Shown piece by piece: positions 29,901 through 47,400 of a stretch of DNA of 64,000 bases. Under the pieces are notes generated by a model, which saw only the letters and a list, made by a program, of their open reading frames with translations, was not told the origin of the DNA and made no database searches. The stretch is taken from NCBI RefSeq assembly GCF_033153115.1, contig NW_026889766.1, forward strand, positions 2,418,001-2,482,000. Direction: 5' to 3'. This stretch comes from Saccostrea echinata (taxonomy: Eukaryota). The position numbers were made by a program, and so were the translations under genes. How positions within the stretch are numbered: the stretch's first letter is position 1; each line of letters begins with the position of its first letter.

Positions 29901-32900
29901 CATGTAAAATGAGGCACCCAACATGACTGGCAAACCGACCAATCAGCTAAATGAGTTGCAATATGGGTTGCTACAAAAAATACTACATGTACGTTTCGAA
30001 AAGGCCAGTTTTTGAAATCGCTCTCGGAAAGACATGATGCATTTTTCCAAGCATTTTACACACTTAATATAACATGTACATCATTATCTACTAGTTCTAT
30101 GCTCACAATTACATACAAATGTTTTACAACGGTAAAATTTGGGTTTTCTCCACTCCATTGTATAAGTCCGTTTGTTGACAATAGCCTGGCAGTTTTCCCG
30201 TGCTGTACTATCAGTCAGTATGAATATCACGTGACTATTCCATGGTCTACAACAAATCGACTCTGAGGTGTACTCACGTATTTTCATTGTTTACTACCTA
30301 TAGAACTTCGATATGTATGCTACTCAATACACGTTCTATGATCAATGTACATGAGAATTAAAATACCGTACAGCAATAGACTTATGATTTTTTTTATAAC
30401 TGCGTTAACTTTTAATTTTTTGTGAACAAATAACAAAGTAACAACGAATAACACCAGTAGCATGGCAAATTTACGAATATCAAGTTATAAAAACTGGGTT
30501 CTTATTTTCTGTGAAGACTTTGTGAGCGATATTTCAACGTACTATTTCACACGGAAAATCGACTTTGTTTGTCATTGTGAGCATGGAAAATCTTAATTAG
30601 TACCTATTCTTCGTATTTTTTTACAAAAACATTAAAAATAGTTATTAGATGACTTTCCCACAAGCATTTGAAATCGCGTCCTAAATTTGCCTGACCCATG
30701 CGTTTGTAGTAAAATATAAACATGTAGTAGACCATCATGCTTTTCGGCTCATTCATTGGATTGGACGATTGCTCGCTGTAAGCACCTCTGTGCGAAATGA
30801 CAATATCCATATATGGTAGATTCCTCAACCTGTTCAACGTGCATAGAGGACCAACCTAGCGGATATAGTACCAGGTCAGGAGAACAGACTCTTACTGATA
30901 ATGCATCGAAAATATTAATGATTTTTGAAACTAGAGAAATTAAAACATACGGTTTTATATCAAATTCAGTCAGTTGAATAAGTGGATTTTTCTGATTACA
31001 TGTAACTTAAGTTGAATGGAGAAACTTTTTATGCTAACTTTTTATCGTGAGAATAATAATCACAACATATACTTGTTGTAGAATTTCATAGATCTATGTA
31101 AGTAGTCTGAATGTAACGGACATTCCGTATACATGTATCATTAAACGAGCATTTCATTTCCTTTATGATAAAGTAGTAACACAAGACTATACTTTTTAAA
31201 GCTGACTTCTCGATTTGGCTTGGTTACGATTGGCTTAATTGTGTTTTGCATTTTACATTTATTTTCATAAAAGGCCGGTTGCACGGAGCGGTGTAAACCA
31301 GGGAGCGGATCAATATATCCGTGTATATTTTAACCATCCTGCCGTAAATCGTTATCAATTTATCTCCTTTTCGAATAGTATATGAAAGTAGGCTTTTTTA
31401 ACCTATACGATGAAATAACACCACAAAATGATATCTAATGTAGATTCTACTGATATAATAATTGATCATTGATAACTCGGGTACACAGTAATGCTTTTCA
31501 TTCACCGGCGGTTTTTAATGCTCCACTGGCGTGCACCAATACCACACTTCAAATGTTGATAGATACTTTGATACGGAACATGTAAAAGAAATTTTATTTT
31601 GGTGCATGCTTGCGGAGGAATTTCATTTGATCAACTTCTTACAAAAAGTATCAGATTTTGATGATTTTGCCAAACTTTATCAAGACTATGTCATATATAT
31701 GACGTCATTGGTACTTTTAGTACTCAACTTCCCGAAATTTGCTTTTTATGGAATACAGTAATATTAAATAGTGAAAATCAGTGGAGTCCATTTTTGGACT
31801 AACTTAAAAAATTCATATTATTGGGGCCGATTTTGGCCCTTGGAGCCCCTACCTGTTTGAAACAGAACTGGCACTTTGGTGCCTTATATTTCGAATTTAC
31901 TGGGGTATGTGAGGTCGACATATGAATGGAAGTGACTAGTTTTAATTGCTAAAACGTCGTCCATATATGTCAATGTCGAGTTGAAGGCCACAACAAGTGT
32001 TTTCTTCTTCTCATATAAAATTTTTCGAATATTTTCTGCTTCATAAGAATTTAAAAACAGGTTAGCTAATAAAGAAGCACTTTTAGTGCCCATCGAACTC
32101 CGAACAGTTTGTTGGAAGACCTGGTCTCCAAAGACTACAATTATCACGATTTCCACGACTGAATTCAAGATTTGAAAAGAATTTATGGGATCATAACGAA
32201 AACAGCATGATGAAGGCCACTATTTCAATCGTATTGCAAACTGTTATAGTACGAATACTGATCAATTGAGTTTTTTTCCTATTTCTTTAAATTTGAGTTT
32301 TAAGTGGACGCAGAATAAAATTAACCTGACTTTTAATGAGGATAAATTAAGCTAAATAAATTGCTTCAGGAAAGGAGAGAGTATAAAATAGGCACTTCAT
32401 AAATAATCAAGTGAACATCATTTTTTTCATTATCAGTTGAAAGAAAACAGATATTTAGCAAAAAATAAAAGAAACTACCCTTCTCATACCAGATAAAATC
32501 AATTAAGAAATTAACACTAAAATTAGATCTTGCCTTGGCAAAAAGGTTCCTGCCAGTTTGGTGAGCATCCACTCATGCAAGTTCCATTTGTCTTGTCACA
32601 ATCTCCCTGAAGACAGTGTCCACATTGTCTGCTGCAACTCTCATCATAATATCCATCAGCACATTCTGAACAAGAAATTGAATGATAAGGTAAGCACAAA
32701 ATTCATTTAAATAATTAATTATAGAGTCCATTTATAGTCCCTACATAATCTATATAAAAGCAAACAGTTCATAAGAAAACATATTAACTGGATTTGAGGC
32801 CGTACTAAACGGAGGGTCAGTGAGCGTGCAGTGGCGATTGTGACGTTTTAAACTACACCTCAAATACCATTGTTAATAATGGTTTCAAAAAGGTATACAA

Positions 32901-44400: not shown

Positions 44401-47400
44401 TTTCATATTTTAAGACAGAACTGCTGTTCTTGTAGCTAATAATGCTACCAAAGATGTGCGTTGCTTCCTGAAATCCGAATAGATTGAGTCCTCGCAATAC
44501 CCAGGTAACACAAAATACATGTATTTGAATCCTATGTCACTCATACGGAAAATTATGAGCCGGGTCCTTCTGAAAGGTTGAGGCGAGAATTCCCATTATG
44601 AAACCATCCCATCAGTAATTCCCTATCTATAAAAGTTACATGTGTACCTATACAAAAATAAGTTAACATCACAAATAGCAAATGTATCTTCCCACTACAA
44701 CAAAGACACCTTTTACCACATCTAGTACTAACAGATATGCGGTACTCCTAAGGAACAAATACAAAAAAGTAGCATAAATAAACAAAACTGTAATAAAAAA
44801 AAAGGAATGATTGTAATAAAAACTTCACTATTCGCACTTGAGTAATATGTAAAAGGTTTTTTTTTTCTTTTTTTTTCTAGTAAATAAATCAAGGAAAGTT
44901 GTCTTCACATGTAATTTCATACTTTCCAGTCTTCCCAGTACTTTGATTTTAGATGTTTTGGTAAAAAGTTGACGTTTTTTGGACTAAAAATGTATAACAT
45001 ATTTTTTTTTTTTTTTTTTTTTGGTCTATTCAAAAGGAAAATGTGCTCTAACTGAAACTTTAGATTATGAAATAATCTACATAAGCTGACAGCCTTCGTT
45101 TTTACTTATTAGATTTTCCTGCAAATATCGTAAAAATGAAGCGAAAAGTTTTTATTTGCACGTCAGAACCACCTTAAACCAAGTTCATAATCTTGTAGTC
45201 ACTTTTTATGTTTTTAAGAAGTTAACATGTAAATTTTGGTGTTGGTTTAAGGTGGTTATGACATGTGGAGGAGTTGCCTAGCACCCCCACCCTCTCAAGT
45301 TTTCCCATTATCCTAAAGCTAACACGAACTGATAGTACATTACTTTGTGACCTTTTATTATAACAACTATTATAAGCATCATTAACCAATCAACATTTAT
45401 CATTAAATTGGATCAATAGCCTACTGATTCATGCAGTTTTTAAAGGAAAAAATACTACTTGAAAATTTGAAGTCATTGTAGGCCCCAAAACGGCCTTATA
45501 GAGAATGGTCCTTTCTATAGAAAACGATAATAGATATTGACAATACTGATGATTTCATATTGCAGTCTTTGTAACCACTTGCGGCAGTTAAGCAGCTATT
45601 TTAATGTATAATGAAAAAAGAACATTTTCTACTAAAATAGGTTTAGAGGAATTATTTTTCTCTTCGCATGGTCGACAATAAAGTCGTTATATAACCAATG
45701 GCTTTCGATTAATAAGCAAAATAAACATATTACTGTATTACAATTGGCAAAGCAAGAGGAAAACAAGATTTACCTTTGCAAAAAGGTCTTTTCCAGTTTG
45801 AAACACATCCATCATCGCAAATCCCATTTTCCTTGTTACAAAGACCTTGGAGGCAATGTCCACATTGTTTACTGCAGTTCTGGTCATAAAACCCGGCTAC
45901 ACATTCTAAAATTTTGAGATATAAAACGTCGTTTATGAATTTTTCAATTTAACAAAGGGATTTGTAGGTAACACTTTGTACAATGTATTCAAATTGAACA
46001 TTAGTCTGTTTTTAATTAGAACATTTATTATACTTCTTTACTTCCTGGATCCTTTGGTCTTGTTTGGGGGATAAAATGTATTTCTAAAAGAAGAACACGC
46101 AGCACAGTTAAGACTACAAAAAGGAGGCGGGCCTTATTTATACGGTAAATGTTTACTATGACATCATGCAAAAACATCAGTTCTCCAAATTATCACAAAT
46201 GAAATATGTGGAGATAGCGAACAGTATTCGAGCTCAAAAGTCCATTAAACATTACAAAATAGGAGCAGAACAAGCACGGACCTCTAAGACATCAGAGGTG
46301 GGATCAGGTGCCACGGAGGAGTGAGCATCCCCTGCCGACCGGTAACACCCGCCGTGTGCGGTTTGCTATGCATATTTGTCGTTGGTTATATCCCACACAG
46401 CAAAATATAAACAATTCACTGATCGAAATGCACTTGTCAATGTAACGTCATATCGTAAAATTTGACGCAGTATGTAGGCAGTATGTAGGCAATTAAGATT
46501 CGGATCAAGTTTTATTTTATACAATGAAAAATGTACTTTGTAATCAAATAAAATATTATTCGCAGATATTTTAGAGGCCATGTTTATTTGATAATTTTAT
46601 TCATATACTTTCCGTACATTCCCAGGACAAGTGATATTGTCGTATATTTGTAAGTAGATTCATTGAAGGGTAGTAGAAGGGTCTTAATAAATCGATATAT
46701 TGCAAGGGCATACCCTCAATGGACAAGCTTTTACGCATAAACTCAAGAAGTATGAAGATATTTGAAAAGTGCTGCGAAGCTGATGAAATCTTGAAGCAGA
46801 ATTAATTATATGCATATTAAATGAGCCGTCCCATGCGAAAAGGGCCCTTAAGGTGAAAATTTTCAAAATTGACTTTTCAATGGATTATGATAGATTATAG
46901 TGTAAAATAACAAAATATAAAATTTGATTCAAATATTCAGAATAATTACTGAGATATCGGGAATCAAAGGTTAAGAATATGTTAAAATTACCTTGTAAAA
47001 TGACGTTGAAAAAAGACGTTCAAACTTACTCTTTTATATCCCTCTCAGAAATATTAATATTTGGAAATACGTATCTGATTGAAAATTCCTTACTTTATCA
47101 CACGAAAACATACATGAGAAATTTATGCATAAAACCTCTGCTTTTATTCTACATGCAACATTTGATATAATTGTTTTCGTTAAAGTTTACCTACATGATA
47201 CACTAGTTGTCGAAACGGTTTCATTGTTATTAGTTAAATTTTTTAAAGAAGACGTGTTTTGGACTCTGAGTTACATGTACATTTTTAGAGTGTCGACATT
47301 TTTGAATGTCACTTAAATGTTCATTTTGGTCATTTGTAACACATGATTTAAACAATCCGATAAAAAATTATTTATGTAAGTTTTCTCAAGTTAAACACAG

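What the first reader, a model, noticed from the sequence alone, without database searches (positions are those of the whole stretch)
32534..45905. Seven identical-length cassette exons in a higher-order A-B-B-A-B-B-A array
Seen: all seven exons are exactly 132 nt and phase 1-1. Type A (CGHCLQG..PFC) is at 45774, 37639 and 32534. Type B (CG(N/E)C..GFC..PLCQ, donor gtaga) is at 42015, 41711, 36018 and 33346. The introns between them are largely unalignable, yet no exon has a stop or a lost Cys. Inference: the array grew by duplication of a three-exon unit, and any subset can be skipped in frame. This could give a length-tunable or combinatorial ectodomain through splicing or allelic copy-number variation.
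Basis: partly seen in the sequence, partly recalled or inferred. Interest (0 to 1): 0.7.

Follow-up and report, generated by a model that had tools for sequence, protein, structure and literature searches.

The report
Transposon-resized oyster receptor phosphatase stalk
The seven look-alike exons each encode one repeat of the outer stalk of an oyster cell-surface phosphatase receptor, and a second copy of the gene in the same assembly, likely the other allele, has ten, likely because recombination between two flanking transposons duplicated a three-exon block, so the stalk would differ in length between alleles and probably between splice forms.

Summary
Observation confirmed: seven minus-strand, 132-nt, phase 1-1 exons, eight Cys each, A|B split 99/97. 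They are laminin-type EGF repeats in an intact oyster receptor tyrosine phosphatase (signal, F-lectin-like head, 9 EGF, TM, two PTP domains), an architecture already linked to parasite resistance in snails. Symmetric EGF exons are ordinary, and the window's ABBABBA order fits one three-exon duplication poorly (AU p 0.014 and 0.053; B1+B2 group together). Copy-number variation is real in the assembly: colinear contig C5, likely the other haplotype, has ten exons. Its extra A1-B1-B2 block sits among three copies of a 1.75-kb TTAA transposon, and the middle copy is a clean chimera of the outer two (66 of 67, then 57 of 59 sites), the signature of unequal crossing-over. Both insertion sites are empty in the window. 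Skipping is untested for this gene; RefSeq isoforms lacking whole repeats exist at 5 of 6 multi-isoform homologous loci. C17 also holds an open chimeric twin: the same ectodomain on a short phosphatase-less tail. New member of a known kind, with an unusually clear mechanism.

The parts
57114..57371 (-). Exon 3, second half of the F5/8C / F-type-lectin-like head domain (exon 1, signal peptide, and exon 2 lie beyond the window at window-equivalent 73617-73668 and 73083-73307)
   Evidence: fold match of homologue P0005 to fucolectin and CBM32 domains
52044..52181 (-). EGF exon 0a, 138 nt, phase 1-1
51124..51258 (-). EGF exon 0b, 135 nt, phase 1-1
46802..46805 (.). Empty TTAA site where C5 carries transposon copy TE3 (upper boundary of the duplicated block)
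45774..45905 (-). Array exon A1, 132 nt, GT donor; duplicated on C5
42015..42146 (-). Array exon B1, 132 nt; duplicated on C5
41711..41842 (-). Array exon B2, 132 nt, groups with B1 (172-nt intron between them); duplicated on C5
41653..41656 (.). Empty TTAA site where C5 and the chimeric C17 copy carry transposon copy TE1 (lower boundary of the duplicated block)
37639..37770 (-). Array exon A2, 132 nt, GC donor
36018..36149 (-). Array exon B3, 132 nt, an older class shared with paralogous genes
33346..33477 (-). Array exon B4, 132 nt, an older class shared with paralogous genes
32534..32665 (-). Array exon A3, 132 nt, GC donor, last repeat before the transmembrane exon
13642..13753 (-). Transmembrane exon, 112 nt
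13382..13482 (-). Juxtamembrane exon, 101 nt
4449..13214 (-). 16 exon blocks encoding tandem PTP domains D1 (catalytic HCSAG motif present) and D2 (no catalytic Cys) and the C-terminus

Best explanation
The seven exons are one-repeat modules of the EGF stalk of an intact oyster receptor tyrosine phosphatase, and the copy on contig C5, likely the other allele, has ten because unequal crossing-over between two transposon copies likely duplicated the A1-B1-B2 block. Shown: gene architecture and open frame; 7 against 10 exons; three 1.75-kb TTAA-flanked element copies bounding two 2.44-kb units on C5; the middle element a left/right chimera of the outer two; both sites empty in the window; purifying selection on the exons. 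Inferred: C5 is the homologous chromosome; two independent insertions put direct repeats round three exons, and a crossover about 1.04-1.10 kb into the element produced the 10-exon allele recently (units 0.2% apart); because every exon is phase 1-1 with a closed set of eight Cys, the change adds 132 residues in frame (1242 to 1374 aa predicted) and would lengthen the rod that holds a predicted glycan-binding head off the membrane; weak donors (GC, gtaga) likely allow single repeats to be skipped, as in homologues. The window's own order likely built up by single-exon duplications and conversion on an older A-B3-B4-A core.
For: Architecture. Colinearity of C17 0.1-2.69 Mb with C5 16.43-18.55 Mb on the same strand; the PTP probe has only two near-identical places in the genome, 100% and 99%. 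10 exons on C5, all open. Duplication 5951 bp at 96.5%, offset about 4.19 kb. Chimera: of 126 sites where TE1 and TE3 differ, TE2 follows TE3 at 66 of the first 67 and TE1 at 57 of the last 59. The units differ by 5 substitutions in 2.44 kb, 4 of them transitions, one changing a residue. The element is a dispersed family, 40 near-full-length places at 91-100% among 40 scored of 2175 candidates. dN/dS 0.018/0.097 between the alleles over the 7 exons. Whole-repeat isoforms at 5 of 6 multi-isoform RefSeq loci, including -44, -44, -44 and -88 aa in S. cucullata. EGF loss between haplotypes in snail RPTPs (PMC12297450, passages).
Against: No reads were seen, so the C5 duplication rests on one assembly. 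The last 53 kb of C5 does not align to C17 2.68-2.92 Mb, so the overlap is not cleanly end to end; one probe (C17 1.2 Mb) listed no C5 match among 40 scored of 434 candidates. The array region is 91.5% identical between C17 and C5, against 97.7% for the PTP region, which is deep for alleles. The tree test is borderline on the full set (p-AU 0.053) and uses 132 columns. RefSeq isoforms of tandem look-alike exons can come from read mis-mapping (inference), and the RefSeq models of this gene itself are single and incomplete (P0024 has 4 of 7 repeats, P0071 6 of 10, neither has the TM exon). Glycan binding and any effect of length are untested.
Confidence: 0.75

Rival explanations
1. C5 is not the other allele but a multi-megabase paralogous segment, so 7 against 10 exons is a difference between paralogues. 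The transposon-mediated crossover would still stand.
For: Array region only 91.5% identical, dS 0.097; the last 53 kb of C5 is unmatched; gene content of the cluster differs.
Against: Same-strand colinearity over about 2.1-2.6 Mb, from near C17's start to near C5's end; PTP region dS 0.013; identical exons in the neighbouring gene on both contigs.
Confidence: 0.12
2. The extra block on C5 is an assembly artefact: the assembler looped from one transposon copy back to the other.
For: A false loop would also give a chimeric middle element; the two units are 99.8% alike and their indels are in homopolymers.
Against: 5 substitutions, 4 of them transitions, separate the units; the differences from the third copy are split 3 and 2 between the units; the switch zone is patchy, like a conversion tract.
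Confidence: 0.1
3. One reading: the window's own ABBABBA arose by duplication of a three-exon unit and serves as a regulated combinatorial splicing cassette.
For: A|B split 99/97; constraint not rejected on the 56-row set (0.053); S. cucullata isoforms drop different repeats, singly and doubly; gene conversion could blur the tree.
Against: Constraint rejected on the 20-row gene set (0.0135); B1+B2 group together; no B pair matches the A2/A3 age; B3 and B4 classes predate the gene duplications; paralogous arrays show other orders.
Confidence: 0.1
4. On function only: repeat number drifts neutrally and any skipping is splicing noise tolerated because it stays in frame; length is not tuned.
For: Repeat counts vary widely among 36 PTP-bearing homologues (1-9 by a strict pattern that undercounts); 17 of 75 array-type exons in the fetched stretches are broken; intronic insertions are frequent here.
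Against: All 22 array exons of the three copies are intact and under purifying selection; the array part is about 7-fold more diverged at silent sites than the PTP part (0.097 against 0.013), as long-lived allelic lineages would give; snail homologues lie in a resistance locus.
Confidence: 0.45

Closest known systems
Molluscan GBD-MEGF receptor-like PTPs (Biomphalaria SudRes1 RPTPs, PMC12297450; 'Subgroup 1C' scavenger-receptor-F-like genes, PMC13712769; passages read)
   Same: Galactose-binding/fucolectin-like head, multiple EGF repeats, one TM helix, tandem PTP domains; clustered paralogues; haplotypes differ in gene number and EGF number; short-tailed relatives in the same cluster.
   Different: Bivalve. 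Here the gain of repeats is resolved to the base, with a transposon-mediated crossover; the passages read report EGF loss without a mechanism. Orthology to the snail genes was not tested, and no phenotype is known.
Oyster RefSeq 'receptor-type tyrosine-protein phosphatase alpha/epsilon/T-like' and 'MEGF10/draper-like' models (XP_062613944-48, XP_022304829-34, XP_034335006-09)
   Same: Same family and 44-45 aa one-exon repeats; isoforms differ by whole repeats.
   Different: Names are automatic and come from the PTP domain or the EGF content; the models for this gene (XP_061180609, XP_061170433) are incomplete.
Repeat-mediated non-allelic homologous recombination causing multi-exon duplication (e.g. 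Alu-mediated, recalled)
   Same: Direct repeats flank the unit and a chimeric repeat marks the junction.
   Different: A DNA transposon family with TTAA target duplication; the result is in frame and apparently tolerated.
CD45/PTPRC ectodomain isoforms and Botryllus fester splice repertoires (CD45 recalled; fester from PMC12065747 passages)
   Same: Receptor ectodomains varied by in-frame exon choice; for CD45, a tandem-PTP receptor whose length matters.
   Different: No homology in the ectodomain; regulated splicing is not shown here. The fester review itself notes that PCR overstated splicing compared with sequencing.

Membership tests
GBD-MEGF receptor-like PTP | Signal peptide and N-terminal galactose-binding/F-lectin-like domain | tested here: met
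   Signal exon found; Pfam F5_F8_type_C and NedA-like hits E 7e-4 and 4e-4, below the curated cut-offs; model of homologue P0005 matches fucolectin and CBM32 folds, TMt 0.69-0.80
GBD-MEGF receptor-like PTP | Multiple EGF / laminin-EGF repeats | tested here: met
   9 Cys-rich exons; EGF_laminin E 1.3e-7 on P0071 and above cut-off on P0005; netrin/laminin LN-LE chains top the fold search; single exons gave no Pfam hit
GBD-MEGF receptor-like PTP | Single TM helix and tandem intracellular PTP domains with catalytic D1 | tested here: met
   TM exon in frame; Y_phosphatase, 2 stretches, E 1.5e-105; HCSAG motif in D1
GBD-MEGF receptor-like PTP | Orthology to the snail SudRes1 genes; glycan binding; immune role | not tested
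   No snail sequence was compared; function needs experiments
Repeat-mediated unequal crossing-over (NAHR) | Direct repeats at both ends of the unit and a chimeric repeat at the junction | tested here: met
   TE1, TE2, TE3 in the same orientation; TE2 66 of 67 TE3-type, then 57 of 59 TE1-type
Repeat-mediated unequal crossing-over (NAHR) | Confirmed in reads; precursor or reciprocal haplotype seen | not testable with these tools
   No reads were available; the C17 twin carries TE1 only, the window neither
Higher-order three-exon repeat (window allele) | Positional partners B1+B3 and B2+B4 are sisters, of the same age as the A pair | tested here: not met
   p-AU 0.0135 (20 rows) and 0.053 (56 rows); dS values
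Combinatorial splicing cassette (Dscam- or fester-like) | Many in-frame isoforms of this gene in RNA | not testable with these tools
   No reads for this gene; only RefSeq isoforms of homologues
Sola3 / Kolobok / piggyBac-type DNA transposon (labels recalled) | TTAA target duplication and terminal inverted repeats with the superfamily's terminal bases | tested here: inconclusive
   TTAA duplication and an imperfect inverted repeat of about 28 bp seen; one end GAG, the other not; no transposase searched; the paper found (PMC5199201, passages) did not give the defining termini in text

The most novel reading that the evidence does not exclude
The cluster is a length- and tail-tunable glycan-sensing receptor system. 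The same lectin-tipped ectodomain occurs as 9- and 12-repeat alleles on a phosphatase, as splice forms shorter by whole repeats, and as an 8-repeat chimera on a short tyrosine-motif tail without a phosphatase. Polymorphic transposon insertions act as the ratchet that resizes the stalk, and selection keeps the length variants, giving oysters size-based, paired inhibitory/activating signalling like CD45 and paired NK receptors, built from different parts.
Probability: 0.15. Interest if true: 0.78.

Novelty: new member of a known kind. Interest (0 to 1): 0.5.

Why it matters
It gives a base-level mechanism for how repeat number changes in a receptor family that maps to parasite resistance in snails and is expanded in oysters: polymorphic transposons flanking symmetric exons. 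The 7- and 10-exon versions are a ready marker (a 4.2-kb length difference) for disease-association work in an aquaculture genus and a direct test of whether stalk length matters in invertebrate receptor phosphatases. It also shows that automatic gene models of this family are unreliable.

Tried and rejected
Sequencing-run search: none was listed and no RNA holder was listed, so no reads were laid; this is no evidence on expression. One homologue search was given the wrong reading frame and found nothing. Haplotype probes: C17 3.5 Mb fell in a young dispersed repeat, C17 1.2 Mb partly so, and the C5-end probe scored only 1 of 1019 candidates; all three are uninformative. Stretches L061, L062, L066, L068 and L085-L088 were fetched and not used. 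Sequence search of ectodomain P0005 against solved structures found 0; the fold search succeeded. The RefSeq models P0024, P0071, P0002 and P0007 omit repeats, but I rejected them as evidence of skipping because they also drop the TM exon or fuse neighbouring genes. A suspected dead donor after the juxtamembrane exon was a misreading; the exon is longer and valid. The row labelled P in the 5' display is a duplicate of W (script slip) and was ignored. Trees left out exons that are not 132 nt and four weak or partial hits (62 rows kept). Literature: searches listed no paper on exon copy-number variation or splicing of oyster EGF-PTP genes (listings and abstract starts; passages of PMC12021676 read, not relevant); subscription papers and supplements were not seen. 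No complex prediction was run.
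Full report
Observation. All seven exons are present on the minus strand at the stated low coordinates. Each is 132 nt, phase 1-1, open, with eight Cys. A profile of the seven scores them at E 4e-27 to 3e-25 and finds two further EGF exons upstream, 135 and 138 nt. A and B separate with 99/97 support. The four B exons have a gtaga donor. A2 and A3 have GC donors and A1 has GT. GC donors are a class trait: 12 of 65 132-nt hits across the fetched stretches have one. The six introns share only one dispersed repeat.

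The gene. The exons belong to an intact receptor protein tyrosine phosphatase: signal exon, two exons for an F5/8C or F-lectin-like head, nine EGF exons, transmembrane and juxtamembrane exons, and tandem PTP domains with a catalytic D1. All junctions from exon 1 to the juxtamembrane exon are in frame, with no stop; the intracellular blocks match RefSeq model P0024. Predicted length is 1242 aa. Pfam gives Y_phosphatase at E 1.5e-105 and weak F5/8C hits. A model of homologue P0005 (pLDDT 83.6, 23-row alignment) matches netrin/laminin LN-LE chains and fucolectin/CBM32 domains. From the standard laminin-EGF disulphide pattern (recalled), each exon carries a closed set of four disulphides, so adding or removing an exon leaves no free Cys. 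Proteins on contigs of the same lengths as C17 and C5 are labelled Saccostrea echinata. The architecture is that of the Biomphalaria GBD-MEGF RPTPs, which sit in a schistosome-resistance region and lose EGF domains in some haplotypes (PMC12297450, passages; PMC13712769, passages).

History of the window's pattern. One three-exon duplication predicts B1+B3 and B2+B4. That joint constraint has p-AU 0.0135 on the 20 distinct exons of the three gene copies and 0.053 on all 56 distinct exons. Each clade alone was not rejected (0.052, 0.084). The best trees group B1 with B2, which lie 172 nt apart. B3 and B4 each group with exons of paralogous genes, so they are older classes. A2/A3 have dS 0.39 and alignable flanks, while the closest B pairs have 0.61-0.68. 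The likelier history is an old A-B3-B4-A core, local duplication of B1/B2, and conversion or single-exon copying between A2 and A3. Support is moderate because there are only 132 columns.

The second copy. The window is C17:2,418,001-2,482,000. C5 is colinear on the same strand: C17 0.1, 0.6, 2.42 and 2.69 Mb match C5 16.43, 16.87, 18.41 and 18.55 Mb. The PTP probe has just these two near-identical places. This is the pattern of an uncollapsed second haplotype (inference). Against it, the last 53 kb of C5 does not align to C17 up to 2.92 Mb, and identity is 91.5% over the array against 97.7% over the PTP region. The C5 gene has ten array exons, A1 B1 B2 A1 B1 B2 A2 B3 B4 A3, all open, giving 1374 aa predicted. 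Between the two versions the seven exons have dN 0.018 and dS 0.097, and the intracellular exons 0.003 and 0.013.

Mechanism of the gain. C5 has three same-orientation copies of a 1.75-kb element bounding two 2.44-kb units. The element has TTAA target duplications and an imperfect terminal inverted repeat and is a dispersed family; its superfamily is not settled. The outer copies are 92.5% identical. At 126 sites where they differ, the middle copy follows the upstream copy TE3 at 66 of the first 67 and the downstream copy TE1 at 57 of the last 59. Unequal crossing-over between TE3 on one chromatid and TE1 on another gives exactly this order. The units differ by 5 substitutions, 4 of them transitions, so the event is recent. 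Both sites are single TTAA in the window; the chimeric C17 copy has TE1 only. It was the only recent exon-containing tandem duplication that a self-comparison of the 664 kb found, besides the older A2/A3 match. An assembler loop would also make a chimeric element, and I saw no reads, so artefact keeps about 0.1.

Skipping. Not tested for this gene. Of 10 clusters looked up, 6 hold several RefSeq isoforms of one locus, and 5 of those 6 include isoforms that lack whole repeats: S. cucullata X2-X4 each lack a different 44-aa repeat and X5 lacks two; C. virginica and M. gigas loci lack 45, 47 or 90 aa. That RefSeq isoforms rest on RNA alignments is recalled, and look-alike exons can mis-map. GC-AG introns have weaker donors and go with more alternative splicing in mammals (PMC7242645, abstract). 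I put skipping in this gene at about 0.65 and regulated, functional skipping at about 0.2.

A tail-swapped twin. About 105 kb away on C17 is a second copy of the 5' half: signal, head, two EGF, A1 B1 B2 A2 B3. A junction at C17 2,538,314-2,538,393 joins its B3-B4 intron to an intron of a neighbouring short-tailed gene, placing one more EGF exon and a TM exon with a short tail carrying YxxL/I motifs downstream. The ten ectodomain exons translate without a stop. No such copy lies in the fetched C5 stretch. Expression is unknown. An earlier scan note on another piece of this genome (e1-9820330) suggested a paired-receptor reading for tailed and tail-less members of this family; it is an unchecked lead, not support.

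Verdict. The array is real and is the ordinary one-exon-one-repeat stalk of a known molluscan receptor family. Searches listed no paper on this in oysters. New member of a known kind; interest 0.5.

Noticed in passing
G000:C17:2,536,389-2,589,631 (L030, L033-L035): Open chimeric gene: this gene's ectodomain through B3 fused to the last EGF, TM and short YxxL/I-bearing tail of a neighbour; junction at 2,538,314-2,538,393 with about 78 bp matching neither parent; not seen in the fetched C5 stretch.
   Followed up: partly
G000:C17:2,486,000-2,630,000 against C5:18,435,000-18,523,000: C17 carries a block of about 100 kb twice, each copy 92-95% identical to the single C5 block; cluster gene content differs between the contigs.
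   Followed up: partly
window 46823-50767: A 4-kb element with GAG-starting terminal inverted repeats and an AAAT target duplication, inserted about 17 bp from the empty TE3 site; two independent insertions at nearly the same spot.
   Followed up: no
window 39305-41570: Element with 10.7 copies of a 166-bp repeat and an ACAG microsatellite, inserted about 90 bp from the empty TE1 site (resembles oyster Cg170-type repeat-bearing elements, label recalled).
   Followed up: no
window 17204-21539: A copy of the same TTAA transposon family as TE1-TE3, reverse orientation, interrupted by about 2.5 kb that includes a 168-bp tandem array, in the 18.8-kb intron before the TM exon.
   Followed up: partly
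window 24267-25193 and 29897-30837: Inverted pair of about 940 bp at 91% identity, 4.7 kb apart, in the same long intron.
   Followed up: no
window 4449-57371 against C5: Divergence between the two versions steps from 97.7% identity over the PTP region to 91.5-93% over the ectodomain region (silent divergence 0.013 against 0.097 in the array exons); could be old allelic lineages or a mosaic with the twin.
   Followed up: partly
G000:C17:2,376,000-2,411,400 and C5:18,343,000-18,392,600: Downstream paralogous RPTP: the C17 copy has a stop in a PTP exon and a frameshifted first array exon, while the C5 copy is open at both; likely a null allele.
   Followed up: no
G000:C17:1.2-2.3 Mb, C5:17.5-18.25 Mb, C48, C41: Many more distant EGF-exon and PTP-exon matches; the cluster extends over more than 1 Mb.
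   Followed up: no
P0024, P0071, P0007, P0002: RefSeq models of this locus drop the TM exon, omit repeats (notably GC-donor exons) or fuse neighbouring genes.
   Followed up: yes
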